From positions 6,930-70,929 of IMG/VR virus record IMGVR_UViG_3300028895_000202: a DNA stretch of 64,000 nucleotides; one strand, written 5' to 3'. Below, piece after piece: positions 4,634-23,287 of this stretch. This stretch comes from a virus. The notes below the pieces were generated by a model. It was not told where the DNA came from. It searched no databases and was given only the letters and a program-made list of their open reading frames with translations. Positions within the stretch are counted from its first letter, which is position 1, and each line of letters starts with the position of its first letter. Position numbers and translations under genes: made by a program.

Positions 4634-5031
4634 TGTCGGAGTTCCGCTCCTTCGCTGAACAGCAATTCAAGCTGTCAGCGAAGGGCGGTTCTGGTGCCTC
4701 CGTAGAAACGAACGAGAATCAGGTAAGGAATTCCGCCTTCGCAAGCGCCACTGTGAAGGAAAAGGCCAGGGAAGAGGCCGAGCAACGGATACCTTGCCCA
4801 GACGAGCTAGAGTGGTTGTGGGGAGTATTCAGCGAACTCAACGCGACCAGGAACTACACAGAAGCTGGCCCAACTGCTATCAATCATCATGACCTGATTT
4901 GCTGGCAGTATGTCAACCAGACCTGTCTGACAATATGGGAATCCGATCTGCTCTTTGACGTTGATCTGCGATACAGACTATTCGCGTCTAAGGAGAGGGA
5001 TAAACAACTGAAGAAAGGCAGGAAGAAATAG
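4633..5031 (+). CDS. Tail assembly chaperone (T-like; possible -1 frameshift partner)
   Basis: WLWGVFSELNATR...AINHHDLICWQ...WESDLLFDVD pattern; lies in the -1 frame relative to the upstream chaperone. Confidence 0.7.
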   Translation: MSEFRSFAEQQFKLSAKGGSGASVETNENQVRNSAFASATVKEKAREEAEQRIPCPDELEWLWGVFSELNATRNYTEAGPTAINHHDLICWQYVNQTCLTIWESDLLFDVDLRYRLFASKERDKQLKKGRKK

Positions 5032-8000
5032 ATGGCCGACATCGCTACACTATCAATCAAGATTGACACTGCCGATATCAAGCGCGCAAAAGGCGAGCTT
5101 ACGGCACTCGAAGCGTCAGTCAAGGCCATCTCAAAGGCACGCATCAATCCGGGTACGGCGCTGGGTATCCGCGACATCGTCGACGCCATGTCGCAGCTGG
5201 ACAAGGTAAACTACGTCCGTGTGCGGACGACGATGGCGTCAGTCTCGAACCTATCGAAGGTACTTAATTCACTGCCAACTCGCGCACTGCCTTCTAGGGC
5301 TATAGCGTCACTAGCAACATCACTGCAAGAGCTTAGTCGCGTGGATGGGGCTAAGCTAACTAGAGTTACTACAGCTATTGCGGCCCTTGGGCCAGCGATG
5401 GACACCCTGAAGGGGGCGGCTGGACTGCGTCCAGCCACTCTTGGCAACCTTGCGAAATCGCTGGTAGCTATCAGCGCGATAAACGGTGGGCAGGTAGCGG
5501 AGTCAGCCAAAGGTGTGCGAGCACTGGGTGCGGCACTTCGATCGATGCCTGCCAAGGCTGGTACGTCCCCCGCCGCTATTAGCAACCTTGCGAAGTCGCT
5601 GGAAGCTATCAGCAAGATAAACGGCGGGAAGGTAGCGGAGTCATCCAAGGGCATGCGCGCCCTTGGTGCCGCGCTACAAGCGATGCCTGCCAAGGCTGGT
5701 ACGTCCCCCGCCGCTATTAGTAACCTTGCGAAGTCGCTGGCGGCCATTAGCAGGATAAATGGTGGGAAGGTAACAGAAGCGGCTGCAGGTATGCGAGCCC
5801 TTAGTGCCGCGCTACAAGCGATGCCAACTAAGGTCGGCACGTCACCAACCGCTATAAGCAACCTTTCAAAGGCGCTACGGCAGATCTCAAACTTGAGCGG
5901 CCAAAAGCTGGTTGACATTTCCAACTCGATGCGTCAGCTTGGGCAGGGCCTCTCGGCCTTCTCCGGCGTAAGGTTCCGCCCGAAGTCGATATCAAACTTC
6001 GCCGTGGCACTAACCGAACTGTCACGGGTCGACGCAGCCAAGCTGAGGGCTGTAGCCAAAGCACTTAGCCAGATAGAGCGTACTGGAACGGGTAGAAGCA
6101 TAGAAGCGCTGACAAAGTCCGCCCTTCAGGCAGCCCGCTCCATAGAGCAACTCCAGGTGCGGACTAAGCGTCTTGAATCAAGGCTTAATCCTGCCAGAGT
6201 AACTGCGTTTGGCCGTGCGTTGTCATTCGTCGGTAGTGCTGCTGGGGGCGCTGTCGGTGCTATTCGACGCACGGTCTCTTCCATCACTACCCTAGGAGCC
6301 AAGATGCGTACATTCAGGGCCAACATCCTCAATGTTGGCGCTGGATTCTTGGTGTTCTCATTTCTGCAAAGATCTGTTGTTCAACTCATCAAGCCGATTC
6401 GTGAGTTCGAGACAGCACTGGTCAACATCTCGAAGACGACCAACCTGACGGGTAGAGACCTACAAGACCTCTCAGACGAACTCCTATCCATTGCCAGCAA
6501 CTCGGTTGCCACCACAGACCAGCTGCTGCAAGTGGCCGGTATCGCTGGTCAGCTTGGCGTTAAGGGAAGGAGCGACATCCTAAAGTTCGCAGACACGGTA
6601 ACCAGACTTGCCGACGCTGCACCGTCTCTCCGAGGTAGCTTCGAGCAGACCGCTCTACAACTGGCTCGTGTGCTCAACATCACTGGTGAGGGCATCGGCA
6701 AGGTTGACAGGCTGGCCTCTACCGTACTGAAGCTGGGTAACAACTTCGAGGCGCTGGAAAGCACCATCCTCAAAACTACGATTGAGGTTGCTGCTGCGTC
6801 GGCAGCCTTCGGTGTTACCTCCGCTGACGCTGCGGCTCTTGCAACCGCACTTGCCCGAGTTAGTGTACCGCCGGAACGTGGCCGAACGGCAATCATCACC
6901 ACGATGAAAGCCATCTCTGACGCTCTGAGAAGTACTGGTGAGGATGCCCAGAACTTCAATCAGATAATCGGAACTGGAAGCGTCAAGGCCCTGCAAGAAC
7001 TATTCAAGAACGATCCGACCGAAGCCTTCCTGAAGCTGGTAGAGGGTCTACGCGCTGTCCGAGACGGAGGCGGGGACGTTACGGCAACGCTGAACAGGCT
7101 TGGCCTGAACTCCATTCGTACTCAAACGTCTATCCTGGCACTGCTGGGTAGCACCGAGAAGTTCCGAAGGGCACTCTCCCTTGCACGGGAAGAGTTCGCC
7201 ACAACGGGCGATGAACTGGAACGAGTAACCAGGCTCGCTAGTGATCGTCTTGACGCTGCGTTTGTGCGACTGACGAACACGTTTAGAGGGCTCCTAATCG
7301 AGTTCTCGAAGACATCTGGGCTTGAAACTGCCCTGCGCGATTCACTTGAACTGATCAGTGACATAGCCAGGTCTATCAGCCCAAACACCGTCGATCAAGT
7401 CGGACAGTTCGCTGGTAACGTCAAGCGGCTTCGCGACCAGCTTCTTGGAGTCAAGAAGGATGATGCGCTGAACTCTGCGTTCTCAAACCTTGAGAACTAC
7501 AGGGAACTTATAGGTAAGATTGGCGACTTTGTAAGGTCAGTCAGTGGCGGTGTCATAACCACGGCAGCGTCTTTCGCCAGCTTGTTCCTCGCCAGCCGAG
7601 CACTCAGCATCGGACTGAGCACGGTACTGTCACCACTTGGCCTAATCTCACTTGGCATCACTGGAGCGGTAGGACTCCTGGACAAGTTTGGAGACAAGGC
7701 ACTCCGTGTCGGTGATCAGTTTGTCAGGCTTCGCGATGTAGTCAAGGCAATCGGCCAAGAATCCGCGAGACGCCTCGAATCGTTCATCCAGGTTGTGGGT
7801 GAGATCGCCTCAAAGCAATCCGCGCTAACAAGCGCAGTCCTGGAAGACATCCTCAGCATAGACGAGAGTAAGCCGGGGGATGTATTCGACAGGATACTCG
7901 ATGCGGCGGATATGGCTGTGGAGTACATCGGCGATCAATGGGTGACCACGCTTGCCAAGGTAGAGACGAGCTTGCTTAAGATAGGCAACTCCATGCGATC

Positions 8001-10662
8001 AATAACTACCGCAGTGCTTGAGACCACTGCCGCGTACCTCGATCTGCTGAAACCAGTGATAGCGTGGGCCCAGCTAGTTGGAGAAGAGATAGCTACTGCG
8101 GTAACGGACCTACTTGACGGCCAGGGGTCAGCTGTGCGTACCATAAACAGTGCCGCACGGATGTCTGGCACTGTCAGTGAAGGCTACGCGGAGCAGCTAA
8201 GGGGAGAAATCTCCAGCCTTATTGCTGAACAAGAACGGCTCAAGTCCGCGCTGGACGCATTCAAGGAGAGGGGGGAGATTGATGAGTCCCTGGGGCGGGA
8301 GGTCATAGGAAGAGAGAGGTTTGACGAGCTTGGTGGTATGAAGCGTATCACTTATCAATACGAGCTTCATGACAAGTGGCAAGAGGCTATCTACGAGAAG
8401 CGAAAGAAGATGGCGGAGCTTACCGCCATCGAGTTGCGTCTAACGACTAATCGTCTTAACGCGGAGTCAGCTGCGGCAGACAAGCGTATAGAGGATCTTA
8501 AGAAGGCTGCCTCCGGAGAGGCGTTCGACCAGTACAACAGCAGATTTGAGAAGACTGGTGAGGCAGTACGCAAAGCGATTAATTCTGTATTGACCTCGCT
8601 TGGTGCAACTGAGTCCTCTACAGACAAGCTGCTAGACGGCTTTATCGACGGTGTCCGTGAACTGGCTATAGCCGCTTTTGAATCGAGCAAGCCTGTAAAC
8701 GACGCTGCCCAGGGTGTAACCAACTATGTCGAGGCTGTAAACGGCTCTGCAAAGGCTGTAACCGACTATGTTCAGCTGGTGCAAGACGCATCTGACGCCG
8801 CAGAGGACTTCGGCGGGACAAGCCTCGGGCTCGCCCCAGAAGAGGCTGAGAAGGTAGATGATATTCTAAGGAGGCTTACTCGACAGTATGAAGACTTGCG
8901 TAGAGAGACGGTCGGTGTATTCGATCCAGCGAGGGCCGAGATAGAGCAACTGTCAGCTACGACAAGTCGCGAAGTAGAAGACATCAGCCGCGAGTTGAAC
9001 CAAATTGGTGCGACCCCCGAGCAACTTGCCAACTTTGATAGCCTGAAGGAAAAGCTAAAGGAGGCTCGCGAGGTTCTACTACAGACGCGGAGAGACAGGG
9101 CTGCCGAAGACCTGATTCGTACCCTAAGCCGTGGGGCAGAGGATGCCAAGCGCTCGATGGAAGCTGCGTCGTCCTACGTGCCAAGCCTAGGCCAGATGGC
9201 TGACGAGCAGGCTCGCTATGCACGGGAGGTCGAGGACACGGTTCGTCAGATGCGCGAGCTTGGTATGTCACAAGAAGACATAAAGATCTCGAAAGCCTTT
9301 GCGTTTGATATTGGTCCATTCAAGGGCATAAAAGAAGCAATAGCTGGCATCCGTGTAGCAACAGCCCGAGCCGTGGAGGATGCCATTCGGCTAGGCGCCA
9401 GTCTGCAAGAGATCGAACAAATCGAACTCAAGGGCAAGCTGCAGGAAGATCTGGCTGTGATTGAAGCGGCGCAGAGCGCGGCAAGCGGGTTCGGCTCTGC
9501 AATCACCGGGGCAATCCGCAGCGGTATTGAGGAGGGCAAGAAGTTCAGGGAGGTCATCGGTGACGTGATGCTGGCCGCGTCCGAGAAGATCGTCACTGAG
9601 ATCGCAATCAGGCCTATCGAGAACATCCTGGACAACGCCCTGGCGGGCCTTTTCGAGGGCATGATTGCAAACCAAGTGACGATCACGGCGACTAACGTCA
9701 CGCTGGCTGGTGCTGGGCTTGCCGCTGGTGCTCCTGGTGCGGTTGGTGCTGCTGGTGCGGTTGGTGCTCCTGGCGCTGGGGTATACGGCCCGCCGCTACC
9801 GGGGGTATACGGCCCGCCGCTACCGCCCGCCACCCCATCAGTTGATGCGGTAATAGGCGAAACCCTGCCAGGGGCAGCAGCAGGCGCCATTGATACAAGC
9901 GGCATCGAGGCCATGAATGCGGCTGCCGCCAATGGCGCTACGCAAGTCGCTGACATGGCTACCGCAGCGACCGCAGCCAGTGTAGCTACGTCAGGTCAAG
10001 AGGCTGCGGCCCTACTCGGCACTGTGGCCCAGCAGGCTGAATCAACTGAAGAAACCAAAGCTGCATTTATTGAGCAGGCAGAGGCTCAGGCTAGTCAGCA
10101 GGCAGCAGCTGCGGCGGTGACGCTGGCCGCCGCGATGAAAGCGGCAGCTGCTTCGGCGGTGATCAGCGCCAAGGGAAACATCTTCGGCGCGAGCGGTGTG
10201 GTTAAGGCGTTTGCGAAGGGAGGTGTTCCGGGAGGAGGCCTGCGCGGCAGGTTCGGTGACATGCTCACCAATGGGCCCGTGGCATTCCCATTAGGGCTGG
10301 CCGGTGAGGCTGGTCCGGAAGCCATTGTGCCTGTAAGCCGTCGTGGCGGGTCGTTCACCATGGGGACCGCCGACGGTAGGCAAATACCGCTGACGAGAGA
10401 CACGAGCGGAAACCTTGTGGCCGATCTGGCTGGCATGTCTAGTAGAAATACAAGGAAGTTCGCGAGCGGGGCCATCCTTGCCAATGGCAGGCAAATGGAG
10501 CCACACGGGGGTTCAACTTCCGGTTATAATGGTGGCACTGTAGTAAATCAGACCATCAACATTCAAACCAAGGATGCAGATAGCTTCCGAAGGTCTGAGC
10601 GTCAGGTTCAGTCCCAGCTACGCAAGTCTGTATCGCGAGCTAACAACGTCGGTCAAGGATGA
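5032..10662 (+). CDS. Tape measure protein
   Basis: 1876 aa, Ala-rich and helical; TP901-like core (EFETALVNISKT); C-terminal AKGN..FAKGG..LAGEAGPEAIVP motif; synteny. Confidence 0.93.
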   Translation: MADIATLSIKIDTADIKRAKGELTALEASVKAISKARINPGTALGIRDIVDAMSQLDKVNYVRVRTTMASVSNLSKVLNSLPTRALPSRAIASLATSLQELSRVDGAKLTRVTTAIAALGPAMDTLKGAAGLRPATLGNLAKSLVAISAINGGQVAESAKGVRALGAALRSMPAKAGTSPAAISNLAKSLEAISKINGGKVAESSKGMRALGAALQAMPAKAGTSPAAISNLAKSLAAISRINGGKVTEAAAGMRALSAALQAMPTKVGTSPTAISNLSKALRQISNLSGQKLVDISNSMRQLGQGLSAFSGVRFRPKSISNFAVALTELSRVDAAKLRAVAKALSQIERTGTGRSIEALTKSALQAARSIEQLQVRTKRLESRLNPARVTAFGRALSFVGSAAGGAVGAIRRTVSSITTLGAKMRTFRANILNVGAGFLVFSFLQRSVVQLIKPIREFETALVNISKTTNLTGRDLQDLSDELLSIASNSVATTDQLLQVAGIAGQLGVKGRSDILKFADTVTRLADAAPSLRGSFEQTALQLARVLNITGEGIGKVDRLASTVLKLGNNFEALESTILKTTIEVAAASAAFGVTSADAAALATALARVSVPPERGRTAIITTMKAISDALRSTGEDAQNFNQIIGTGSVKALQELFKNDPTEAFLKLVEGLRAVRDGGGDVTATLNRLGLNSIRTQTSILALLGSTEKFRRALSLAREEFATTGDELERVTRLASDRLDAAFVRLTNTFRGLLIEFSKTSGLETALRDSLELISDIARSISPNTVDQVGQFAGNVKRLRDQLLGVKKDDALNSAFSNLENYRELIGKIGDFVRSVSGGVITTAASFASLFLASRALSIGLSTVLSPLGLISLGITGAVGLLDKFGDKALRVGDQFVRLRDVVKAIGQESARRLESFIQVVGEIASKQSALTSAVLEDILSIDESKPGDVFDRILDAADMAVEYIGDQWVTTLAKVETSLLKIGNSMRSITTAVLETTAAYLDLLKPVIAWAQLVGEEIATAVTDLLDGQGSAVRTINSAARMSGTVSEGYAEQLRGEISSLIAEQERLKSALDAFKERGEIDESLGREVIGRERFDELGGMKRITYQYELHDKWQEAIYEKRKKMAELTAIELRLTTNRLNAESAAADKRIEDLKKAASGEAFDQYNSRFEKTGEAVRKAINSVLTSLGATESSTDKLLDGFIDGVRELAIAAFESSKPVNDAAQGVTNYVEAVNGSAKAVTDYVQLVQDASDAAEDFGGTSLGLAPEEAEKVDDILRRLTRQYEDLRRETVGVFDPARAEIEQLSATTSREVEDISRELNQIGATPEQLANFDSLKEKLKEAREVLLQTRRDRAAEDLIRTLSRGAEDAKRSMEAASSYVPSLGQMADEQARYAREVEDTVRQMRELGMSQEDIKISKAFAFDIGPFKGIKEAIAGIRVATARAVEDAIRLGASLQEIEQIELKGKLQEDLAVIEAAQSAASGFGSAITGAIRSGIEEGKKFREVIGDVMLAASEKIVTEIAIRPIENILDNALAGLFEGMIANQVTITATNVTLAGAGLAAGAPGAVGAAGAVGAPGAGVYGPPLPGVYGPPLPPATPSVDAVIGETLPGAAAGAIDTSGIEAMNAAAANGATQVADMATAATAASVATSGQEAAALLGTVAQQAESTEETKAAFIEQAEAQASQQAAAAAVTLAAAMKAAAASAVISAKGNIFGASGVVKAFAKGGVPGGGLRGRFGDMLTNGPVAFPLGLAGEAGPEAIVPVSRRGGSFTMGTADGRQIPLTRDTSGNLVADLAGMSSRNTRKFASGAILANGRQMEPHGGSTSGYNGGTVVNQTINIQTKDADSFRRSERQVQSQLRKSVSRANNVGQG
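5430..5900 (+). repeat. 138-bp (46-aa) tandem repeat inside TMP, about 3.5 copies
   Basis: ATGCC(T/A)..AAGG.. (MPAKAGTSPAAISNL-type) units start at 5545, 5683 and 5821. Confidence 0.85.
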
Positions 10663-11672
10663 GTTTCCACGAATCAGCAACCTTCCCCGAGAAGATAGCA
10701 GCGGGCTCAGAGCGCATCAGCCGGTTTAATACTCGCGTATTTACGCACGATAACGGTGCATCTACGCGAATCGCTGGATGGAGCCAGCCTCTGTTGTCGT
10801 TTGACGTGTCTCGCGGGCTTGATTTCCAGGAAGACGTAGCTGAGCTAGAGAGATTCTGGAGGGCGAGGCGCGGTGCTACGTTTGGTTTTCGGTTCAAGGA
10901 CTGGTGGGATTACCACACCAATCCCACCGGGACTACCCATAACCCGGGTGACTACACCGATTCTACGGACCAGCTAACTCACACCAAGGGCCGTCTTCTG
11001 CCAGTCGAGGACTCGCTATCCGGCGGGCTATACTACGCGGCACAGCTGTGTAAACTGTATGACGATGCCGGTGTTGAGGAATACCGTGTTATCAACAAGC
11101 CAAGATCCGGCGCCGTCATCTCTGGCCTCACCCACAGCGGTATCGATACGACTACTGGAATCGTCGGCACTCCGAACGGCTGGAATGAGGATAGCATACT
11201 GAACGCCAAGTGGAGGGGCCAGTTCGACGTCCCGTGTCACTTCTCGGCCAATATTGATAACCAGGGCCTATCACTGAGCGCCCAGGATTTCAACGCTAAC
11301 TCCGTTCCGTCGGTTGAGATCTACGAGATCCGGGCTGAGTTTGAAACGCCTTCTGCCGCTTATGCTGGTGGTTCTCGCGACTTTGGTGTATCGGCAAACA
11401 CGCTGCTGACTACATCTTCGGCAAACGGAAGGTTCCAGGTATTCCGCCCGTCAAGCGGCAGCACTATAACGGTCGTGGTTCTATCGCTATCCAAAGAGCC
11501 AGCCGGTGAAGGCATTCTGGTGTTGCACAACGCTGGCGAGGGCACACTCAGCGTACGCACGAGTTACGTCGATGGATCGCCAACTTCTGTCGCGTCTGGC
11601 GAGACTGCCAGGATCCACATCGTCCGCGACTATGTGTCTGGAAGCTACGAGTCCTTCACGACGGTGTCCTGA
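10659..11672 (+). CDS. Distal tail protein, DUF2460/RcGTA g12-like, with C-terminal extension
   Basis: MSFHESATFP...FWRARRGATFGFRFKDWWD...FDVPCHF; directly follows TMP. Confidence 0.85.
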   Translation: MSFHESATFPEKIAAGSERISRFNTRVFTHDNGASTRIAGWSQPLLSFDVSRGLDFQEDVAELERFWRARRGATFGFRFKDWWDYHTNPTGTTHNPGDYTDSTDQLTHTKGRLLPVEDSLSGGLYYAAQLCKLYDDAGVEEYRVINKPRSGAVISGLTHSGIDTTTGIVGTPNGWNEDSILNAKWRGQFDVPCHFSANIDNQGLSLSAQDFNANSVPSVEIYEIRAEFETPSAAYAGGSRDFGVSANTLLTTSSANGRFQVFRPSSGSTITVVVLSLSKEPAGEGILVLHNAGEGTLSVRTSYVDGSPTSVASGETARIHIVRDYVSGSYESFTTVS

Positions 11673-11675
11673 CAC

Positions 11676-14600
11676 ATGAGCCTTTCACAGAGACTACTCT
11701 ACGGGAACTCTCAGTCAGAGAGCCCTACGCTGGCATCTTCGGCCATCACCGTTGCTGGCAACACGACGATCCTGGTTGTGCGTGAGGGGTCGTCCGTATC
11801 AACGCTCACCATTACCCTACCAGCGGTAAGACAGTCCCTAGTTGGCAGGCTCATCCGAATTCTCCGCAGCCCGGCTAACGCAACCACAGTAGTTATCAAG
11901 GACGAGTCGGGCTCAACACTACAGACAATCACATCTGCCGGGTCAGTAGACAACATCGAGGTCTACCTGACTGACTACAACGGAGGCACGGGGTCCTGGG
12001 AGATCGTAGTTCCATCCACGACTTCCGTAACTCGACGCCAACCGCTGAACGTCATCATGATTAACTATGATGACTGCGGCAGGCACCAACTTCCCACCTA
12101 TTACGATCTGAACTCCTGGCCCGCAGGTTACTACCACCTGTATCCGCAGATGCCGTGGACTCAGGACCGTTGTGGAACCGTTTCTGATCAAGGTACTGAG
12201 GCCGGTACGCGGTTCGTGAACGCCCGCGTGTCTGCGCGCTGTACGCCGACACGGCAGTGCCTCGCCACCGGCAGGCAGCCGCATGTCTCGCAAACGCACC
12301 CATGGGGAAGTCGTGTGGGCAACATCCCTCAGCAGGGAGGCGTTACGCCAGAGTTCAGGACGATTAAGGGTATAACACGCGACCAAAACCCATTCCCTGT
12401 TGTTGCCAGGAACGCTGGGGCACCGCACTACTTCTTCCACATCGGAAAGATCCACGCTACTGAGCACGAGATTCGCGATGACGACAGTGACTATGTCTCT
12501 GTAGACGGGTTTGGTGTAGCCGACTTCACAAAGGCAGACGAGATCCGCACCAACTTCAAGCAGGTCATTACCGACTTTGGGTTTGACGAGTCATACAAGC
12601 TAGAACTCGCCAAGCCCGATGGCGCGGAGACAGAGCCTTACAAGGGCTACCGTGGAACGTGGAGTGGAGATGGAGCTGACACCACAACTCGCGACGCCCG
12701 CACCTTCTCCGTACACCACATCTACAGTGACACCGCCACTGCCGCTACAGGCTGGTCGGTAAACGGTACGGCGCGGCTTGGATCGAAGGTACTGCCAATC
12801 GCAGGAGGTAGCGGCCAGTTCAAGAAAGGTGACCGTATCCGCGTGTCAGGCGTCAATGGCGAGCTAATCGTCTGGGAGGATAGTGGGGCCTCACCTACGC
12901 AGATCACGCTATATCAGGGCTTGCTAGAAACGCCACGTGATGGTGCATCCATCACAGTCGTATTCCACATTGTTGGTGACGATGTGGAGAGTGGTGAGCT
13001 ATACGGCGGCAACGAGCTTGGCGGTATGCGTCGCGCAGGCTTTACCCAGCAGCGTGACCCTGGGCAAGGTGGGGCATCGCTCATCCTGGCTACGGGAGGA
13101 ACGCTAACAGAACGTCCGGACATACTGACAAGCAGCATAACAGTACACGGCACGGAGACCAGCACGAGTACCGACTACGGTGAGGATCCATACTACTTCA
13201 CCTACGAGCTTACCAAGATCAAGGAGTGCATCGACGCCTGCGCCAGCCGCAACAAGCCGTTCTTCATCGAGTGGTGGACTCACGCACCACACGGCACCCT
13301 GCCAGCTATCGAGTCAAACATAGGCCCCAACTGGAGCCGTTGTGGTGTAGCCGCTGACGGGACGACGTACTTCTTCACTGACGCTCAACACTCGGGTGGC
13401 GTAACGCCAGAGCAGTCTGTCGCGACTGGTATGCACCGTGAAGCTGACAGCGTGACTGGGCGCACGTTCAGCGCGGCAGAAGTTCAGGCAATGTGCCGTA
13501 GGTATCTACGTACCTTCAAGGACGAGGTGGTCGATGGTATCGACGTCAGCGATCCGCAGCATCCCCTGATCCAACAGGGCATCTACGCTACAGCTTCACT
13601 CGACGGGCGGATACGTATCAGTAACCTGTACAACAGGGATAAGCGATACACCGTAAGCGGTAACACAGCCAGCACCGAACCTCAGAACTTCGGGCCAGGA
13701 TACGACGCTGACGGCAACTGGGACAACAGCAGCCCATATGGTCCGCTTGGGCAGATCAGCGTCGCCTACAGGCGGATGATCGCGAACATGGAGTCCATCG
13801 ATCGCGGCTGCCAAATGCTCGATGACTGGCTTCAGCTGAACTACCCAGAGGTTCACGCCAACACGCTGTGGGTAATCCACGCCGATAACGGGCCGACAGA
13901 GTCAGACGCATCTCCACGCGCCGATTCCTGGGCATCCCATTACGACAACAGCGGAACTTCGATCTCTATCACAGGTGGTGGAGGCCCATCGCTCCGCACC
14001 CGTGGGGATCTTGTGCCAGCGAGGTGGACTACCTTGCGAGATTCGGAAGGGGACACGGCTGTCTGGGACAACTACAGCGCCTTGCCGCCCTGCGTCGGTG
14101 GGCGCGACGCGCTTACGGATCAGTTCTTTGGGTGGACTTCAGGCGTCGATAGCCCGGACATAACCTATCACAACCCCGATCACTCCAAGAACCAAGTCAA
14201 CGACGACGGCATTCTGACGCACCTGAGTGTCTGGGGTTACAACCTGCACGAGGGCGGCAACGACGCTACCGCGTTCATCGATGCATGTGACTTCTACAAG
14301 TTCGTGCTGGACATCATAGACCCGGGGTCATACGACGTCGCACTCTCTCCCGAGGGGAAGTACTACGCACAGGATTCGGTGAGCTTCGCGCCATCGCTAG
14401 CTGACCCATCCTTCGTCCCAAAGACCTCTACTCTTCATCAGATCTTTATTCCATCTGGAGGTTCTGAAGGAAACCTGCGTCGTATCGAGAGATGCGTCAT
14501 TGATGTAGCATCAAATTACAAGTTGATGCGTAGGTACAACGAGACCCTAACTGATGCATACTTCGGTGGAGTGGATAACAACGGCAGTCCACTACAGGGC

Positions 14601-15095
14601 GTCAAGTACTATAGGATCGCTGGTGGAACAATGCAGTTCCAGCTATCCGAACCAACAATAGACGTTGGGCCTGTCGAAGACGGAGAACCCGCACGTGCCG
14701 TAGCGCCCGTGCCGGAACCGATTGACGGTGATACGGTTTGGGACATCGTCAGCACTTACGGCGTCATCTACGTCCGTCTTATTGCGGAGGCCGATGATAC
14801 AACTGGCGCAATACTCGACCTGTGGAGAGATGCCGCTCTGACAACACCAGTAACGGCAGCTGGATTCACGGCCACAAGTTGGACAGAGATAAGTACGGCT
14901 GGGAACTGGGAGGTTAACTTCAAGCTATCCCGCGAGGAGTCCTGGATCTTTGATCCGGACAATACGGGCTGGTTCCTCTACAACCTCAACGACGACCCTC
15001 GTGAGACTACGAACCTATACGGGGCTGACGGATACGATAACGTGGTCTCCCTTATGCGTAACCTGTATCTGGACAAGGTCGGAAACCTGGACTGA
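11676..15095 (+). CDS. Virion-associated sulfatase-superfamily protein (S1/formylglycine type)
   Basis: PLNVIMINYDDCG, CTPTRQCLATGRQP (CxPxR), IGKIH, KPFFIEWWTHAPH, NTLWVIHADNG and LYNLNDDPRETTNL, in the canonical sulfatase order; located within the baseplate genes. Confidence 0.8.
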   Translation: MSLSQRLLYGNSQSESPTLASSAITVAGNTTILVVREGSSVSTLTITLPAVRQSLVGRLIRILRSPANATTVVIKDESGSTLQTITSAGSVDNIEVYLTDYNGGTGSWEIVVPSTTSVTRRQPLNVIMINYDDCGRHQLPTYYDLNSWPAGYYHLYPQMPWTQDRCGTVSDQGTEAGTRFVNARVSARCTPTRQCLATGRQPHVSQTHPWGSRVGNIPQQGGVTPEFRTIKGITRDQNPFPVVARNAGAPHYFFHIGKIHATEHEIRDDDSDYVSVDGFGVADFTKADEIRTNFKQVITDFGFDESYKLELAKPDGAETEPYKGYRGTWSGDGADTTTRDARTFSVHHIYSDTATAATGWSVNGTARLGSKVLPIAGGSGQFKKGDRIRVSGVNGELIVWEDSGASPTQITLYQGLLETPRDGASITVVFHIVGDDVESGELYGGNELGGMRRAGFTQQRDPGQGGASLILATGGTLTERPDILTSSITVHGTETSTSTDYGEDPYYFTYELTKIKECIDACASRNKPFFIEWWTHAPHGTLPAIESNIGPNWSRCGVAADGTTYFFTDAQHSGGVTPEQSVATGMHREADSVTGRTFSAAEVQAMCRRYLRTFKDEVVDGIDVSDPQHPLIQQGIYATASLDGRIRISNLYNRDKRYTVSGNTASTEPQNFGPGYDADGNWDNSSPYGPLGQISVAYRRMIANMESIDRGCQMLDDWLQLNYPEVHANTLWVIHADNGPTESDASPRADSWASHYDNSGTSISITGGGGPSLRTRGDLVPARWTTLRDSEGDTAVWDNYSALPPCVGGRDALTDQFFGWTSGVDSPDITYHNPDHSKNQVNDDGILTHLSVWGYNLHEGGNDATAFIDACDFYKFVLDIIDPGSYDVALSPEGKYYAQDSVSFAPSLADPSFVPKTSTLHQIFIPSGGSEGNLRRIERCVIDVASNYKLMRRYNETLTDAYFGGVDNNGSPLQGVKYYRIAGGTMQFQLSEPTIDVGPVEDGEPARAVAPVPEPIDGDTVWDIVSTYGVIYVRLIAEADDTTGAILDLWRDAALTTPVTAAGFTATSWTEISTAGNWEVNFKLSREESWIFDPDNTGWFLYNLNDDPRETTNLYGADGYDNVVSLMRNLYLDKVGNLD

Positions 15096-16105
15096 TGGCT
15101 GACCGTATTGCTCGTAGCGTCGTAGACGTGGTGACCCGCAGAGCGGTCACTTATAGCACAGCCTGGAGGGTTGAGCGCCGCGATGGCGTGATCATCGCTA
15201 TATGCAACCACTCCTCCGACGTGACGTTGCCTGACGGATACAGGTATCGTGCAGCCTTCGGCGGGGCTACGTCAGCAGTGCGACGCGAAGAGGGTATGGG
15301 TAACTCAGACGTTGAGGTGCAGAGCATCGTCAATAGCGCGTTTATCAGCTACACAGACCTTCAGCAAGGCAAATACGATGACGCTACCGTAGTCGTAAGC
15401 ATCTTCGATGCTGATAGGCCATACGCCGGTATCCTTGAGTCGAGAAGGTATCTGCTAAGGCCGAGTTCATATGGTGAGCTTGGCTGGAAGGCTACGCTTG
15501 TCGGTCTTCACGAAACTACCAGAACCGAGGTTGGTCAAACGCTATCGCCAACCTGTGTTCATGTCCTAGGGGCTGGGTACGATACTGGCAATCCCTACAT
15601 GTGTACGGTTAATCTGGCAAGGCATCCAGCCACCGTCTACGGGACAGTCGTAAGTCCAGCGTCTATTCCAGGTGAATTCACGGCTGCTAGGGCGGATGGG
15701 TATTTTGGCCGAGCGTATGTGATCGTTGACGGGGCAACACTTAACGATGCTGATGGCAACGTGCTGACAACTGTTGTGTCAGACTTCGCTAACGGGACAC
15801 TCTATTTCATGGATGGAGCTAACGTCGGAGCATCCGGGTACATCCGAGAGCATGGCAATCCTGGCGAACCAGGAACATACACAGACATTGGTGCCGGAGA
15901 TTTCGCCGTAAAGCTGCTGAACCCAATGCGCGCACCTATAGTGGGGGGCGAGCGCGTTCAGCTACGGCTTGGCTGCAATAAGCGTCTAGGCAATACGTCG
16001 TCAGACGGTCACTGCTACAACAGGTTCCAGAACACGCACCAGTTCAAGGGCGACCCAATCATCCCCGGAACCGCACCGGCCCTTAAAGTGTCCGCCGTGA
16101 ACTGA
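15095..16105 (+). CDS. Baseplate hub protein, DUF2163/RcGTA g13-like
   Basis: AWRVERRDG..., DLQQGKYDDA, C..LG...C.VNL and GCNK...C..RF.N...F.G.P.IPG motifs. Confidence 0.85.
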   Translation: MADRIARSVVDVVTRRAVTYSTAWRVERRDGVIIAICNHSSDVTLPDGYRYRAAFGGATSAVRREEGMGNSDVEVQSIVNSAFISYTDLQQGKYDDATVVVSIFDADRPYAGILESRRYLLRPSSYGELGWKATLVGLHETTRTEVGQTLSPTCVHVLGAGYDTGNPYMCTVNLARHPATVYGTVVSPASIPGEFTAARADGYFGRAYVIVDGATLNDADGNVLTTVVSDFANGTLYFMDGANVGASGYIREHGNPGEPGTYTDIGAGDFAVKLLNPMRAPIVGGERVQLRLGCNKRLGNTSSDGHCYNRFQNTHQFKGDPIIPGTAPALKVSAVN

Positions 16106-16530
16106 TGGATTACGGCAAGCAAGCACTCAGGATCGCCAGGGATCTCATCGGAACCCGCGCCGCCCTTACGTCAACGGACAAACGTAAGGGACTCTGCTGC
16201 TATGGCCTCATCTGGCACTGCCATCCACACCTACAAGACCGACTGCCCGAAGTAGACGACGTGTACAGCCTTGGTCACAAGCGCCAGATACTTGAGATCA
16301 CGAAGTATGCTGACCGAGTGAGTCGCCCGAAGCCAGGATGCGTAGCTGCCTTTAACAACAACATGCTTGGCAGAAACGGTCTATCGGAACTGCATCTAGC
16401 TGTTGTCTCCTCTGTAAGCCCGGACAGGGTAATACACGCGGATATGGGGAGTAGGAAGATAAGTGAGGATACCCTTACCGACTTGTTCTTACGGGGTCTG
16501 TCTCTGATAGGGTATTGGAGGGCTAAGTAG
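16105..16530 (+). CDS. NlpC/P60-like tail peptidase (RcGTA g14-like)
   Basis: ARDLIGT, GLCCYGLI, HLAVV and VIHA motifs; position between hub and megatron. Confidence 0.7.
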   Translation: MDYGKQALRIARDLIGTRAALTSTDKRKGLCCYGLIWHCHPHLQDRLPEVDDVYSLGHKRQILEITKYADRVSRPKPGCVAAFNNNMLGRNGLSELHLAVVSSVSPDRVIHADMGSRKISEDTLTDLFLRGLSLIGYWRAK

Positions 16531-16531
16531 T

Positions 16532-19500
16532 ATGGTATCACTCATCTTCGCTGCCGCAGTTGCTGGTGGTGCGATTACAAGCACTACAGCAATCATTATC
16601 GGTGGTATATTGGCTGCTGTAGCTGATGCAGCCCTAGCCCAGGCCTTCTTTAAGGATCGCACTGAAGATCCAATCGCCGGGGATACTGAGCGTGGCAAGC
16701 AAATCAAGACCAGTGCCTCCGCAGAGGGGCAGGGCCTGACATACGTGCTTGGTCGAGCCCGCGTCCCGATGCGCCTGATAGCGTCGCAGAACGGATGGAG
16801 GCTCCAGTCTGGTGATCCAGATAAGCATAACATCAACTTCGCCGTAGACGTATCCAATGGTCCCGTAAAAACGCGAGTAGTAAAGTCATCAACTACTGGG
16901 TATGACGAGACCGGGTTCATTGAGGCTGTATACGCGGAAGGGCAGCCGATCTACCTACAGTCGGGAGAAGTCACGTATTCTGGTCCAGACCTGTACTTCC
17001 TATCGTGCCCGAGACAAGTAGAGGCCGGGTCGAATCGTAATGACATTGATTCCTACACAAGCAGTATTTTAGGGACGAATATACAAAGGTATAAGACTAG
17101 ATATGATGCTTCCGTGTCTCAAGACGAGTTGGCATATCCATGGCCCACAATACAGCGCCCGATTGTAATTGTATCACCGCCCTGGGGACCTTCCCTCAGC
17201 AGCCTTCTGCCGGTTGGCGAGGAGGTCACATTTTCCGGCGTACCAGTAGCAACATACACACCTAGCTCTGCGGATCCATCCGGCGTAACTAGCATAACAT
17301 TCGATCCGAACATAGACGGGCAATTCTTTGGAAGAAGCGTTGACCAGCGCGTGCCGTCCGGTTCATCCGCCGACTTTTACGACGACGATACGAATTTATC
17401 TACGCAAGGGCATGACCAAGACGCGCCGGGGTATCGGCTTACGTACCGCGTCGCATATGTGTCTGATGGTTTCAATACATCGGTAGTCGGGACGTTGCCA
17501 TTGACAGTTTTCTCAAGCGTAGCAGACATGACGGGGTGGGAAGTTGCTTCGCTAGAACTATACCCTCACCGTAACGTGCGTGGTAACCAAGACGACTACG
17601 GTGATTGGAAATATGACATTAAAAAGCGCGGCATTAGATGCACTAGGCCAAGCGGTGTCCCGATACTAGCGACAGACATTACAAGTAAATCACTGTTTTG
17701 TTGCACCGCATCAGACGGCCAAACATCTGTATATCCGGGATTTGGCCGTGACATAGTAATATCCGCTGGTAACTCAACACTAGGCTACTACGGTGGCACC
17801 ACGGGGGACTTTCGTGCAGTAGATGCACTTGTAGTTCCAGGCATTCCATTGAATAGAACAGTAACTGCTAGTTACTTCGATCCCTACGGTAATATAAAAA
17901 CGGGTAAGGGTATTCAGCTAAATCAAAATTACGATAACACAGGGTTCCACAATGTTCTAATAAAAGAGTCTGGTATTAGTTACTATTTACCTGTCTTCAC
18001 ACCACCCCCGTCAACCACTAACCCGGCATATCTCGACTCATCAGACTACGATCTAGATGATGATGGAGTAACCCATCATAGCAATGACCTTGCTGAGTTC
18101 GTAGCTAGGTTCCCGCAGGGTGTAGTCCCAAGTAACTATGCGGAACACTACCCCCTAGCATTCGGCGTAGTACAGCATACGTCGTACCCATCGGGAGCGT
18201 CTACCGTCAAAAAGGGTATGGAAGGCACACTATCTACGACGCTCGGGACAAGCGGTACGCAGCCTTTTGCCGCCATGTATCAGATTTCTGGGTCTGATAC
18301 TACTCCTACCTCTGATGTACGTAACCCGAGCACGCCCGTAGGAGCAGTTCTAGCTGAGCTATTTGGGCAGCCGTCTGCGTCTGGGTCTACTAATCCGAAC
18401 ATCTCATCCTGGGTGCCAAACCGCGTTGGTCGAGCCTGGGTTGTGTTCAAGGATATGGACCTCGTCAACTTTGGCGACAGGATACCGAACATGGAGGCCG
18501 TTGTCGTGGAGCGAGAAGACCTGGATCTGGCAACAGCCATCGGAGCCCTGCTGGAGCGACACGGCATCAAACCCTGGCAGTATGACGTGTCAGAGGTTAC
18601 CGGCGAGCTAGAGGGGCTTGCCGTCGTGGAGCCCGTAGGCTCCATCGAGACTATCCAGGCATTGATGGAAGTGTATCGCATTGATGCTCGCGAAGTTGAC
18701 GGCAAACTCCACTTCTCAATGCGAGAAGACGCACCAACTTACGCACTAGAATACGGCGAGCTTGGGGCTAACGACTCAAACGAACGTGTAGAGCCCATAA
18801 ACGTAACCGTTCTACCGACGTCCGCTGCCCCAAAAGTAGTTCAGGTCAAGTTCATGGAAGATGGCGCTGGACTCATCATCAACGCCGTCACGGTCACATC
18901 TGACGGGTCTGGTACTGTATTCGACAGGACAAAGACAGAGAAGCTACAGTACCCGTTTGCCATGACCCGTCGGCGCGCAAACCTCGCCGCGCTACAAGAG
19001 CTTGTAGACAGACAACTGGAGCTTGAGCAGTACTCACTTAACATACCTCCAACGCGACTTGACATCCGTGACAGCGACTGCTTCAGCACCGTGGTAGATG
19101 CTGACGACTCTAGCTTCGAGGTGGTGGGTAGGATTACAGAGATTGAACGTGGTGCTAACTTCTACCCCGTAGCCAGGGCGACGAAGGTTAACCCGAGTGC
19201 TAAGGCCCTACCGATCGATCTAATACCGGAGGAAGGGGCGTCGGGTACATTCGGTGGTCAGGGTGATTCTGGCGGCGGGCAGCCACCAACAGATCAGGCC
19301 TATACCCCACACCCAGTGTTAGCTTCGTGGATTAACGTTGGTTACGTAAGCGGTAGCACTAACTCCACGGAAATTCATGACACGAATGTGCCGCAGGCCA
19401 CCGTGGCGTGGCTAAACCCAGGTGGAATAAGCCCCAACCAACAACTGCTTGAGACAGACGACGACCAAGAACGAGCTATAGTAGCCTCATCAGTAATTGA

Positions 19501-20581: not shown

Positions 20582-20598
20582 TTCGATAGAGAAGTATC

Positions 20599-23262: not shown

Positions 23263-23287
23263 ATAGCTAAGGCAAGGACGGAATAGT

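What the first reader, a model, noticed from the sequence alone, without database searches (positions are those of the whole stretch)
11676..15095. A formylglycine-type sulfatase built into the phage tail-tip/baseplate module
Seen: the 1139-aa ORF carries the S1-sulfatase motifs in order: NVIMINYDD (metal Asp-Asp), CTPTR..LATGR.P (CxPxR, Cys codon at 12240), GKIH, KPFF...APH, M..ID....L......NTLWVIHADNG, SKNQVNDDGI (matching GxK..YEGG) and LYNL.DDP.E..NL. Beta-rich insertions interrupt the fold, and a ~120-aa N-terminal domain looks like a tail-protein adaptor. The gene sits tightly packed between the DUF2460 distal-tail gene and the DUF2163 hub gene. Known: these two genes are adjacent in RcGTA-type tails, and CxPxR sulfatases need host FGE or anSME to convert Cys to formylglycine. 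Inference: a virion enzyme or lectin that desulfates or binds a sulfated capsule or glycan during adsorption. This would be a depolymerase class I do not know from phage tails, and it would depend on a host post-translational modification because no FGE gene is present in the window.
Basis: partly seen in the sequence, partly recalled or inferred. Interest (0 to 1): 0.88.

Follow-up and report, generated by a model that had tools for sequence, protein, structure and literature searches.

The report
Sulfatase built into a phage tail tip
An uncultured phage carries a complete sulfate-ester-cleaving enzyme gene wedged into its tail-tip genes, apparently hung on the tail by a small docking domain, which would be a kind of tail enzyme not described before.

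Summary
Window 11676-15095 (+) is one 1139-aa ORF whose S1 (formylglycine-type) sulfatase motifs are all present and in order. Its own Pfam score is below threshold, at 20.2 bits against 25. Its relatives pass, the family profile matches solved sulfatases at E 7.6e-36, and the AlphaFold model matches S1 sulfatases only. The catalytic residues are kept in at least 90% of 26 relatives.

The gene is translationally coupled between the DUF2460 distal tail protein (Dit) and the hub. Two other viral contigs, about 35% identical, show the same arrangement. A further lineage fuses the sulfatase to the protein that follows the tape measure, and another fuses it to a tail-fibre anchor.

New here: the sulfatase's N-terminal ~115 aa are homologous to a C-terminal extension of the Dit itself (hhalign E 1e-8; shuffles score at most 15 against 51). 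In other contigs, Dits with this extension are followed by different cargo genes, including a pectin-lyase-fold protein. This suggests a modular docking slot.

Close relatives without the anchor lie outside tail modules. No FGE or anSME gene is present. Virion location, formylglycine formation, substrate and host are inferred, not shown. No report of a phage tail sulfatase was found.

The parts
11676..15095 (+). Tail-module sulfatase gene (P0001, 1139 aa plus stop)
   Evidence: ORF and translation; sulfatase family by profile and by fold.
11676..12020 (+). N-terminal 'X' domain (res 1-~115), a nine-strand beta domain and the proposed docking module
   Evidence: Homologous to the Dit C-terminal extension: hhalign prob 95.6, E 1.1e-8, score 51.1 over 98 columns. 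Controls: reversed 10.2; 20 column shuffles at most 15.2. An HMM built from Dit sequences alone finds the L001 and L002 sulfatase N-termini at E 1.6e-10 and 5.4e-8. Model pLDDT 64.5.
12069..12074 (+). Asp132-Asp133, metal ligands (NYDD)
   Evidence: Invariant in 4 of 4 and 7 of 7 sequences, and kept in at least 90% of 26.
12240..12275 (+). CTPTRQCLATGR: the CxPxR formylglycine signature (Cys189, Arg193)
   Evidence: Read directly from the sequence. R193 invariant and C189/P191 kept in at least 90% of 26. Aligned to CSPTR of the solved sulfatase 6uss_A. pLDDT blocks 95-96.
12447..12455 (+). Lys258-Ile-His260 (GKxH)
   Evidence: Kept in at least 90% of 26. Aligned to GKAH / GKWH of solved sulfatases.
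12660..13184 (+). Insertion 1 (res ~329-503), beta-rich, mostly low confidence
   Evidence: Absent from the relatives of 640-790 aa. pLDDT <50 for 430-504.
12729..12962 (+). Sub-domain of insertion 1 (res 352-429) shared with a phage tail-tube protein
   Evidence: 40% identity, E 2e-14, to res 94-171 of P0032, which is a Phage_tube_2 protein (102.5 bits). Weak hit to phrog_283 'major head protein'.
13290..13292 (+). His539 (WWTxAPH)
   Evidence: Kept in at least 90% of 26.
13341..13661 (+). Insertion 2 (res ~556-662), low confidence
   Evidence: L001 and L002 carry a different insert at the same site.
13884..13889 (+). Asp737-Asn738 (HADNG), metal ligands
   Evidence: Kept in at least 90% of 26. 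Aligned to SDNG of solved sulfatases. pLDDT block 95.
14187..14189 (+). Lys838 (HSKN..DDG)
   Evidence: Kept in at least 90% of 26. Aligned to GKGSAYEGG of 6uss_A.
14538..14960 (+). Insertion 4 (res ~955-1095), a confident beta-sandwich inside the C-terminal subdomain
   Evidence: Present only in P0001 and P0003. pLDDT blocks mostly 72-91. It may account for the 100-165-column BFVD matches to tail-fibre, C1q and collagen proteins; which part of the model matched is not reported.
10659..11672 (+). Distal tail protein (Dit), 337 aa: DUF2460 core plus a C-terminal X-domain extension (res ~232-337, nt 11352-11669)
   Evidence: PF09343 on res 8-225. Long (320-340 aa) and short (207-215 aa) homologs. 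The extension is homologous to the sulfatase N-domain.
15095..16105 (+). Baseplate hub protein
   Evidence: PF09931 plus PF09356. Its start overlaps the sulfatase stop.
5032..10662 (+). Tape measure protein (1876 aa)
   Evidence: PF10145 at 32.9 bits, just under the 33.2 cut-off; assignment also rests on position and size.
16532..20581 (+). Megatron / host-specificity-like tail tip protein (1349 aa)
   Evidence: PF13550 Phage-tail_3, 52.3 bits; phrog_4271 tail protein.

Best explanation
The gene encodes an S1 (formylglycine-dependent, Cys-type) sulfatase that is an accessory structural protein of an RcGTA-type siphophage tail tip.

Shown:
- It has the S1 sulfatase fold and the full catalytic set (D132, D133, C189, R193, K258, H260, H539, D737, N738, K838).
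- It is translationally coupled between the distal tail protein (Dit) and the hub.
- Its first ~115 residues are a paralog of a ~105-residue domain ('X') appended to the C-terminus of the Dit.

Inferred:
- During late expression, a host maturase (FGE or anSME) converts Cys189 to formylglycine in the cytoplasm.
- The sulfatase's X domain docks on or beside the X domains that project from the Dit ring just above the hub, so that several enzyme copies surround the tail tip.
- On contact with a sulfated capsule, exopolysaccharide, LPS or S-layer glycan of the host, the enzyme removes sulfate esters. This would either clear a charged barrier or act as a receptor-modifying, reversible attachment step, so that the hub and megatron can reach the membrane.
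- The extra beta domains (res 352-429, shared with a tail-tube protein; res ~955-1095) probably add glycan contacts.
For: Sulfatase identity:
- Motifs in order.
- Relatives pass PF00884 and PF16347.
- The family profile finds 81 solved sulfatases at E<=1e-3, best 7.6e-36, with CxPxR, GKxH, SDNG and K..YEGG aligned.
- The model (pTM 0.70) matches S1 sulfatases in all 50 listed Foldseek rows, with target-normalised TM 0.48-0.64.
- The catalytic residues are kept in at least 90% of 26 relatives at 22-62% identity, and in 7 of 7 anchor-bearing forms. This argues for selection on catalysis.

Tail location:
- A 3-nt gap and a TGATG overlap with the flanking tail genes. Promoter-like and terminator-like sites across 5000-24500 do not exceed the shuffled expectation (11 against 11.6; 13 against 12.8).
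- The same gene order occurs in L001 and L002, at 37-38% identity.
- In two GenBank phages with this tail type, the Dit and hub genes abut. They also abut in 56 of 66 surveyed IMG/VR loci whose Dit lacks X.

Docking:
- X-domain homology between the Dit C-terminus and the sulfatase N-terminus, with controls.
- In RcGTA the Dit is a hexamer whose C-terminus (Arg209) sits at the hub/megatron interface (passages of PMC7296036). An appended domain would therefore sit at the baseplate periphery.
- Of 80 DUF2460 loci, 7 have an X-Dit. Of the 6 of those with a detectable hub, 5 carry more than 900 nt between Dit and hub, against 10 of 66 without X (Fisher p 0.0011, but the loci are not independent).
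- In those slots, L106 holds a 149-aa X-like protein plus a 676-aa pectin-lyase-fold protein. L111 holds a protein whose C-terminus matches a solved 'major tail structural protein' at 2.7e-25. So the slot carries tail appendages.

Independent virion fusions of the same sulfatase clade:
- P0010 has a tail-fibre N-terminal anchor (phrog_1858, 2.4e-14) and a cement/decoration-like domain (PF09956, 44.3 bits) ahead of the sulfatase.
- L012 and P0015 encode a protein of 1364-1381 aa directly after the tape measure, with the sulfatase at its C-terminus.

Host maturase dependence: no PF03781 or TIGR03942 match in the 70.9-kb record, nor in 5 related records, one of which is rated 100% complete.
Against: - Nothing shows the protein is in virions, is modified to formylglycine, or is active. 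The host and any sulfated host glycan are unknown.
- The nearest anchor-less relatives lie between replication genes (helicase, primase-polymerase) and the terminase/portal genes, not in tail modules (L003, L008, L009, L016-L019). On the tree they interleave with the tail forms. The enzyme therefore evidently works without a tail anchor, and the tail-module copies could be passengers.
- Three full-length clade members sit on contigs of bacterial MAGs, and no flanking ORF of theirs matched any protein of the phage loci compared (phmmer E<=1e-5). One has a DinB-like neighbour.
- The protein's own Pfam score is under the curated cut-off.
- 353 of the 1139 residues have pLDDT <50, all of them in the insertions and termini.
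- The X-domain model is only moderately confident, and no PDB match reaches E<=1e-3.
- X-like matches at the start of the non-sulfatase slot genes are weak: 10-14 bits, hhalign scores 22-32.
- The arrangement is rare: 1 of the 80 surveyed DUF2460 loci, and that one is the L002 contig again.
Confidence: 0.55

Rival explanations
1. Sulfate-ester lectin. The protein is on the tail, but Cys189 is not converted, or turnover is irrelevant. The intact pocket simply binds sulfated sugars, making it a receptor-binding protein rather than an enzyme.
For: No maturase gene in the record or in the relatives. The extra beta domains resemble virion decoration or fibre domains.
Against: Every residue needed for chemistry, not only for binding, is kept across 22-62% identity: the nucleophile Cys, the four metal ligands and both His. 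Binding-only descendants of enzymes usually lose such residues (established knowledge, not tested here).
Confidence: 0.12
2. Matrix-penetration enzyme. It is virion-borne and active, but its substrate is the sulfated polysaccharide of the habitat (algal cell-wall glycans, mucins, biofilm matrix) rather than the host's own envelope. It would help the phage move through, or stay in, the gel where hosts live.
For: The best solved matches are carbohydrate sulfatases acting on porphyran, carrageenan, mucin and glycosaminoglycans. More distant genomic relatives come from the polysaccharide-degrading Planctomycetota, Verrucomicrobiota and Bacteroidota.
Against: Nothing links the enzyme to any particular substrate. 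Placement at the Dit/hub level is typical of host-contact proteins, as described for the RcGTA baseplate (PMC7296036 passages).
Confidence: 0.13
3. Non-structural passenger. It is a soluble phage sulfatase (an auxiliary or lysis-time enzyme) that happens to be inserted in the tail operon and is not assembled into particles.
For: Anchor-less relatives lie outside tail modules in at least 7 loci and interleave with the tail forms on the tree.
Against: The same insertion point recurs in three lineages at about 35% identity, always with the X domain shared with the Dit. There are independent fusions to a tail-fibre anchor and to the post-tape-measure protein. The gene is tightly translationally coupled.
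Confidence: 0.12
4. Different substrate class. It is a member of the sulfatase fold that hydrolyses phosphonate monoesters or phosphodiesters (for example in teichoic-acid-like or phosphoglycan surface polymers) rather than sulfate esters.
For: Catalytic promiscuity of formylglycine enzymes is known: Pseudomonas arylsulfatase variants were crystallised with phenylphosphonate ligands and appear among the fold matches. The clade is very divergent, with only 30 representative clusters at E<=1e-3 among 1.84 billion.
Against: The Lys/His pair (GKxH) and the Asp-Asn metal ligands match the arylsulfatase pattern. That phosphonate monoester hydrolases differ at these positions is recalled, not tested.
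Confidence: 0.08

Closest known systems
Bacterial S1 carbohydrate sulfatases and arylsulfatases (solved examples: 6uss_A, 7stt_A, 7lha_B BuS1_11, 1hdh_A Pseudomonas arylsulfatase, 1auk_A human arylsulfatase A)
   Same: The fold, the two-subdomain layout, the CxPxR formylglycine signature, and the metal and sulfate-binding residues.
   Different: About 9-12% identity in the structural alignments. Four large insertions, about 450 extra residues. An N-terminal phage docking domain. Encoded inside a tail-tip operon. The clade is tiny: 30 representative clusters among 1.84 billion.
Virion-associated polysaccharide depolymerases and receptor-modifying esterases of phage tailspikes and fibres (recalled from general knowledge; a 2023 review of phage carbohydrate-interacting proteins, PMC9853417, was read in passages)
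   Same: An N-terminal virion anchor plus a C-terminal enzyme that acts on surface glycans; encoded among the tail genes. The same slot in L106 holds a pectin-lyase-fold protein.
   Different: The chemistry would be removal of sulfate esters rather than chain cleavage or deacetylation. It needs a host post-translational modification. The fold is alkaline-phosphatase-like, not a beta-helix or SGNH fold.
RcGTA-type tail tip (Dit g12 hexamer, hub g13, peptidase g14, megatron g15; PMC7296036, passages read)
   Same: DUF2460 Dit, hub (PF09931/PF09356) and a Phage-tail_3 megatron-like protein, in the same order.
   Different: The Dit is 337 aa rather than about 209 and carries an extra C-terminal X domain. 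A 3.4-kb sulfatase gene separates the Dit from the hub. The 141-aa protein at the peptidase position has no family hit.
Sulfatase-fold proteins of giant viruses of eukaryotes (BFVD: Yasminevirus, Satyrvirus, Terrestrivirus, Tetraselmis virus 1)
   Same: They are the only viral proteins with the sulfatase fold among the 50 BFVD rows listed (ranks 1, 2, 7, 27).
   Different: They are not phage proteins and have no tail context. Identity is 8-9%.
phrog_19870 (PHROGs family of unknown function)
   Same: Matched by clade members P0006, P0016, P0018 and P0023 at E 2.3e-13 to 4.1e-10, so a phage sulfatase family is already catalogued, without a function.
   Different: P0001 itself does not reach it at E<=0.01. 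tblastn of P0001, P0006 and P0016 against 50,697 GenBank phage records finds nothing.

Membership tests
S1 formylglycine-dependent sulfatases (Pfam PF00884 with PF16347 C-terminal part) | Alkaline-phosphatase-like alpha/beta fold with an N-terminal catalytic subdomain and a C-terminal subdomain | tested here: met
   AlphaFold model with pTM 0.70 and core blocks at pLDDT 83-97. All 50 listed Foldseek PDB rows are sulfatases or sulfamidase; best E 9.5e-10; target-normalised TM 0.48-0.64.
S1 formylglycine-dependent sulfatases (Pfam PF00884 with PF16347 C-terminal part) | Significant sequence-profile similarity to the family | tested here: met
   The single sequence is below the curated cut-off (20.2 against 25 bits). 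The 34-member clade profile hits 81 solved sulfatases at E<=1e-3, best 7.6e-36. Relatives at 31-43% identity pass PF00884 at 40-73.5 bits.
S1 formylglycine-dependent sulfatases (Pfam PF00884 with PF16347 C-terminal part) | C/S-x-P-x-R signature carrying the residue that is converted to formylglycine | tested here: met
   C189-T-P-T-R193, followed by QCLATGR. R193 invariant and C189/P191 kept in at least 90% of 26. Aligned to CSPTR of 6uss_A.
S1 formylglycine-dependent sulfatases (Pfam PF00884 with PF16347 C-terminal part) | Metal ligands (Asp-Asp near the N-terminus; Asp-Asn/His after the central strand) and the Lys/His/His/Lys substrate-binding set | tested here: met
   D132, D133, K258, H260, H539, D737, N738 and K838 are kept in at least 90% of 26, and are invariant in 7 of 7 anchor-bearing forms. 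The roles of these residues are recalled from the solved enzymes.
S1 formylglycine-dependent sulfatases (Pfam PF00884 with PF16347 C-terminal part) | Catalytic residues converge on one pocket in 3D | not testable with these tools
   Model coordinates are not exposed to scripts. It is known only that the residues lie in blocks of mean pLDDT 89-96.
S1 formylglycine-dependent sulfatases (Pfam PF00884 with PF16347 C-terminal part) | Formylglycine actually formed; sulfate-ester hydrolysis | not testable with these tools
   Needs protein chemistry. No FGE or anSME gene in the record.
RcGTA-type siphophage tail-tip module | DUF2460 Dit, PF09931/PF09356 hub and a Phage-tail_3 megatron-like protein in this order after the tape measure | tested here: met
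   Compared with Microcystis phage Mwe-JY26 and Rhodobacter phage RcRudolph.
RcGTA-type siphophage tail-tip module | Dit and hub genes adjacent; NlpC/P60 peptidase after the hub | tested here: not met
   3.4 kb (the sulfatase) lies between the Dit and the hub. The 141-aa ORF after the hub has no Pfam, PHROG or NCBIfam hit. This is a variant of the module, not the canonical layout.
Virion-anchored tail enzymes (tailspike/fibre depolymerase-like) | N-terminal domain that attaches to the tail, followed by an enzymatic domain | tested here: inconclusive
   The N-terminal X domain is a paralog of the Dit C-terminal extension. Its top three PDB fold rows are phage baseplate, capsid-spike and tailspike proteins, but at E 0.013-0.43 and from a model of pLDDT 64.5. 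Binding was not demonstrated.
Virion-anchored tail enzymes (tailspike/fibre depolymerase-like) | Protein present in purified virions and active on the host surface polymer | not testable with these tools
   Uncultured phage; no proteome or host is available.

The most novel reading that the evidence does not exclude
RcGTA-type siphophages have a plug-in socket at the tail tip. A ~105-residue 'X' domain added to the C-terminus of the distal tail protein recruits any cargo protein that starts with the same X domain and is encoded in the slot between the Dit and the hub. The cargos are swapped between lineages: a formylglycine sulfatase here, a pectin-lyase-fold enzyme in L106, unknown domains elsewhere.

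The sulfatase cargo would be the first virion enzyme whose activity depends on a host post-translational modification (Cys to formylglycine). If so, productive particles could be made only in hosts that have an FGE or anSME, and sulfated surface glycans would be a phage receptor class that is read by desulfation.
Probability: 0.3. Interest if true: 0.85.

Novelty: new variant of a known kind. Interest (0 to 1): 0.72.

Why it matters
Phage tail enzymes described so far cut or deacetylate surface polysaccharides. A sulfatase would add a new chemistry to phage adsorption and would point to sulfated capsules, exopolysaccharides or S-layer glycans as phage receptors. Such glycans are common in marine, hypersaline and host-associated bacteria but are hardly studied as receptors.

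Because the enzyme needs formylglycine, the phage's infectivity could depend on a host maturase. That would be an unusual form of host dependence, and it can be tested directly.

The shared X domain on the Dit and on the cargo gives a concrete, testable rule for how accessory enzymes are mounted on this widespread tail type. It could also be used to find, or to engineer, other tail-borne enzymes.

The clade itself is a compact, very divergent branch of S1 sulfatases and may have new specificities. It has about 30 representative clusters, and every member whose genomic context could be seen lies on a viral contig, apart from three on MAG contigs.

Tried and rejected
- Single-sequence searches gave nothing: phmmer against PDB sequences, tblastn of P0001, P0006 and P0016 against 50,697 GenBank phages, and pattern scans of IMG/VR with P0001 or P0010 alone.
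- The first scan of 185,579 species genomes, with two clade-specific patterns, found no relative.
- Two scans with the 26-sequence alignment failed because it had no conserved stretch. They were repeated with the 4-sequence alignment.
- Complex prediction on the full Dit plus sulfatase res 1-122 gave no verdict: scores 0.27 and 0.29, under the 0.32 mark, and the controls were not run. It counts neither for nor against binding.
- The N-terminal 780 aa of P0015 and L012 show no similarity to DUF2460 (hhalign E 0.75). Whether that fusion partner is a Dit is therefore open.
- Insertion 1 is not similar to the window's own two tube proteins.
- The ESM Atlas gave only unnamed viral clusters of ~100-115 aa for the X domain (score 0.92, a lead only) and nothing usable for res 955-1095.
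- A PHROGs scan of the genes around the short-form sulfatase gave only a portal-like hit.
- Host inference stayed weak. Two of the three full-length genomic relatives are on Planctomycetaceae MAG contigs, but no flanking ORF of theirs matched any protein of the phage loci compared. One neighbour had no match in the phage records and one is DinB-like. Relatives of a virus record cannot be drawn.
- Six literature searches found no report of a phage virion or tail sulfatase (passages read). The hits concern bacterial sulfatases, FGE-domain proteins and phage-encoded FGE. Supplements were not read.

Full report
**1. The observation**

The window is bases 6930-70929 of a 70,929-base IMG/VR virus record, linear and estimated 71% complete. 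Positions 11676-15095 (+) hold a single 1139-aa ORF with an ATG start.

Taken alone, the sequence is only weakly recognisable:
- PF00884 scores 20.2 bits against a 25-bit cut-off, on res 171-256.
- An NCBIfam arylsulfatase model touches res 1084-1133 at E 0.0063.
- phmmer against all PDB sequences finds nothing.

The two weak hits are independent and collinear: profile positions 30-99 near the N-terminus and 406-455 near the C-terminus. That is what a real but much-interrupted sulfatase would give.

**2. Family membership**

An exhaustive HMMER search of 1.84 billion representative proteins found only 30 with E<=1e-3, 16 of them at E<=1e-30. The word-indexed search found four, including an identical cluster and P0003 (60% identity, 1113 aa).

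- Shorter relatives (P0004, P0005; 643-657 aa; 38-43% identical) match PF00884 across positions 1-299 of 301, at 46 and 42.8 bits, and also pass PF16347.
- In a 26-sequence alignment, D132, D133, C189, P191, K258, H260, H539, D737, N738 and K838 are at least 90% conserved, and R193 is invariant. I left out P0014, P0025-27 and P0031 as short or partial, and P0032 because it is not a sulfatase.
- A profile of 34 members finds 81 solved sulfatase sequences at E<=1e-3, best 7.6e-36. CxPxR, GKxH, SDNG and K..YEGG are aligned residue by residue.
- An AlphaFold2 model from the same alignment has mean pLDDT 67.5 and pTM 0.70. The catalytic residues lie in blocks of mean pLDDT 89-96. The 353 residues below 50 lie in the insertions and termini.
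- Foldseek against the PDB gives 128 matches at E<=1e-3. All 50 listed rows are S1 sulfatases or sulfamidase.

**3. Surroundings**

All large ORFs from 332 to 24037 are on the + strand and form a siphophage tail module:
- a tail terminator-like protein;
- two Phage_tube_2 paralogs;
- a chaperone;
- an 1876-aa tape measure;
- a DUF2460 distal tail protein (Dit, 337 aa);
- the sulfatase;
- the hub (PF09931 plus PF09356);
- a 141-aa ORF without any family hit;
- a 1349-aa Phage-tail_3 protein;
- an 887-aa DUF2793 fibre-like protein.

The Dit stop and the sulfatase ATG are 3 nt apart, and the sulfatase stop overlaps the hub ATG (TGATG). Promoter-like and terminator-like sites across 5000-24500 are no more frequent than in shuffles.

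In two GenBank phages with this tail type (Microcystis phage Mwe-JY26 and Rhodobacter phage RcRudolph), a Dit of about 200 aa is directly followed by the hub, a peptidase and the large tip protein. The window's hub is only 23-26% identical to any of the 31 matching GenBank phage records, so this is a distant lineage.

**4. Recurrence**

Pattern scans of IMG/VR with family alignments returned the following.

- L001 and L002 have the order tube, tape measure, DUF2460 (333 aa), sulfatase (784 and 792 aa; PF00884 at 53.6 and 43.2 bits), hub, then, in L002, a Phage-tail_3 protein. This is the window's arrangement at 37-38% protein identity.
- L012 lies on a 67,694-base record rated 100% complete. 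With L011 and P0015 it shows a 1419-aa tape measure, then a 1381-aa protein whose res 771-1361 are the sulfatase, then a 233-aa protein, then an 1891-aa Phage-tail_3/LamG protein. The first ~770 aa of the fusion show no similarity to DUF2460.
- P0010 (771 aa; its context could not be fetched) starts with the N-terminal anchor shared by tail-fibre PHROGs (phrog_1858 at 2.4e-14, phrog_2617 at 2.1e-12). A cement/decoration-like domain follows (PF09956, 44.3 bits), and then the sulfatase.
- Anchor-less forms of 570-675 aa (L003, L008, L009, L016-L019) lie 1-3 kb upstream of the terminase large subunit and portal. In L016 they lie downstream of a helicase and a primase-polymerase. L004 has the same pattern of ORF lengths but was not tested.

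A maximum-likelihood tree was built from 34 rows with the quick method. It left out P0002, P0014, P0024-27, P0031 and P0032.
- A 30-row clade separates (100*) from four generic sulfatases.
- The window plus P0003 (100*) is sister to the short forms, with support of only 82. Both sit inside a 99* clade that also holds the L001/L002 group.
- The post-tape-measure fusions interleave with near-terminase forms in a 100* clade.

Tail attachment has therefore been gained or lost more than once.

Among the 50 BFVD rows listed, the only sulfatase-fold matches are from giant viruses of eukaryotes. GenBank phages have no tblastn match to P0001, P0006 or P0016. PHROGs holds one family of unknown function (phrog_19870) that four clade members hit.

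**5. The anchor**

The Dit here, and in L001 and L002, is about 125 aa longer than the 207-215-aa homologs. Its C-terminal extension (res 232-337) aligns with the sulfatase N-terminal domain (res 1-122) in hhalign: probability 95.6%, E 1.1e-8, score 51.1 over 98 columns. A reversed copy scores 10.2, and 20 column shuffles score at most 15.2. An HMM built only from Dit extensions finds the L001 and L002 sulfatase N-termini at E 1.6e-10 and 5.4e-8. No other ORF of the window carries the domain at E<=1.

Passages of the RcGTA structure paper say three things (PMC7296036). The Dit is a hexamer. Its C-terminus (Arg209) contacts the hub and megatron. The Dit and hub carry oligosaccharide-binding domains. 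A domain appended to that C-terminus should therefore project at the baseplate rim.

A separate model of the X domain has nine strands and pLDDT 64.5. No PDB match reaches E<=1e-3. The three best rows are a phage baseplate-cup protein, a phage capsid spike and a tailspike depolymerase, at E 0.013-0.43. That is a lead only.

**6. A cargo slot**

I surveyed the best 80 of at least 587 DUF2460 loci in IMG/VR, using HMMs built here.
- 7 of the 80 have an X-bearing Dit. One of them, L102, is the L002 contig again.
- Of the 6 with a detectable hub, 5 have more than 900 nt between the Dit and the hub.
- Of the 66 loci whose Dit lacks X and where a hub was found, 10 do. Fisher p is 0.0011, but related contigs are not independent, so the number overstates the case.
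- Only L102 has a sulfatase.

The other occupied slots hold other things:
- L106 holds a 149-aa protein that is little more than an X-like domain, followed by a 676-aa protein that matches pectin-lyase-fold and mannuronan-epimerase beta-helices (E 4.7e-6 to 1.2e-3).
- L111 holds a 923-aa protein whose C-terminus matches a solved 'major tail structural protein' at 2.7e-25.
- L103 holds a protein of about 975 aa with no PDB match.

The first gene after the Dit in L103, L104, L106 and L129 begins with a full-length but weak X-like match: 10-14 bits, hhalign scores 22-32 against 15 or less for shuffles. I read this as a modular socket in which Dit-X recruits X-cargo. The sulfatase loci support this well; the other loci support it only weakly.

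**7. Maturation and host**

No FGE (PF03781) or anSME (TIGR03942) was found in the record, nor in five related records including the complete one. If the enzyme is active, the host must supply the maturase. This is an inference.

The second scan of 185,579 species genomes found 268 sulfatase relatives, of which the best 80 are listed. Only three of those 80 are strong, near-full-length matches (E<=6e-62), and two of those are on Planctomycetaceae MAG contigs. The rest match mainly the C-terminal part and come mostly from Planctomycetota, Verrucomicrobiota and Bacteroidota. No flanking ORF of the three full-length contigs matched any protein of the phage loci compared (phmmer E<=1e-5), and one neighbour is DinB-like. 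The host remains unknown. The window is 57% G+C; the related contigs are 64-68%.

**8. Mechanism and rivals**

The best reading (confidence 0.55) is a formylglycine sulfatase mounted around the tail tip through X-X docking. It would strip sulfate from a sulfated host surface glycan during adsorption.

Shown: the fold, the catalytic set, the operon position, the recurrence, and the shared domain. Inferred: assembly into virions, maturation, substrate, and effect on adsorption.

The rivals are:
- a binding-only lectin (0.12);
- an enzyme aimed at sulfated gels in the habitat rather than at the host envelope (0.13);
- a soluble passenger enzyme (0.12), kept alive by the anchor-less relatives outside tail modules;
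- a different ester substrate (0.08).

**9. Novelty**

Six full-text searches found no report of a sulfatase on a phage virion or tail (passages read). The hits concern bacterial mucin sulfatases, FGE-fold domains, or phage-encoded FGE. The library does not hold most subscription journals, and supplements were closed.

The protein is a new, very divergent member of a known enzyme family. It is used in what looks like a new variant of a known strategy, the tail-borne glycan-modifying enzyme, and the evidence suggests a previously undescribed docking domain.

Noticed in passing
window 1286-2866 and 2941-4203 (+): Two tandem tail-tube paralogs of 526 and 420 aa. In both, the 266-position Phage_tube_2 profile is stretched over ~365-378 residues, which implies large inserted decoration domains. 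They are not similar to the sulfatase's tube-like insertion.
   Followed up: partly
window 16105-16530 (+): A 141-aa ORF at the position where related phages encode the NlpC/P60 tail peptidase. It has no Pfam, PHROG or NCBIfam hit.
   Followed up: partly
window 50382-50458 and 58192-58268 (+): Two phage-encoded tRNAs, Ile (anticodon TAT) and Arg (anticodon CCT), both for rare codons.
   Followed up: no
L106 3691-4137 and 4137-6164: Between an X-bearing Dit and the hub lie a 149-aa X-like protein and a 676-aa pectin-lyase-fold (beta-helix) protein. This is a different enzyme in the same slot as the sulfatase.
   Followed up: partly
L012 8001-12146 (also L011, P0015): A 1381-aa protein directly after the tape measure. 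Its first ~770 aa have no recognisable family, and its last ~590 aa are the sulfatase.
   Followed up: partly
P0010 (771 aa, no locus): A three-part protein: tail-fibre N-terminal anchor, cement/head-decoration-like domain, then sulfatase. Its contig could not be found in IMG/VR.
   Followed up: partly
L003, L008, L009, L016-L019: The anchor-less sulfatase keeps a fixed place 1-3 kb upstream of the terminase large subunit and portal, after the replication genes, in a group of high-G+C viral contigs. Its role there is unexplained.
   Followed up: partly
window 15081-15092 (C-terminus of P0001): The last four residues, GNLD, are shared by P0001, P0003, P0005, P0006 and the L001 protein (GNRD in L002, GNLN in P0007). 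They are therefore conserved in both tail-anchored and free forms.
   Followed up: no
window 5032-10662 (+): The tape measure is very long at 1876 aa, which implies an unusually long tail if length scales as in other siphophages (an inference). Its PF10145 hit is just under the cut-off.
   Followed up: no
window 26455-27471 (+): A DUF932 protein (139.2 bits) and a DnaB-like helicase (30048-31454) mark the start of the replication region after the tail genes. G+C rises from ~0.53 to ~0.60 at about 24 kb.
   Followed up: no
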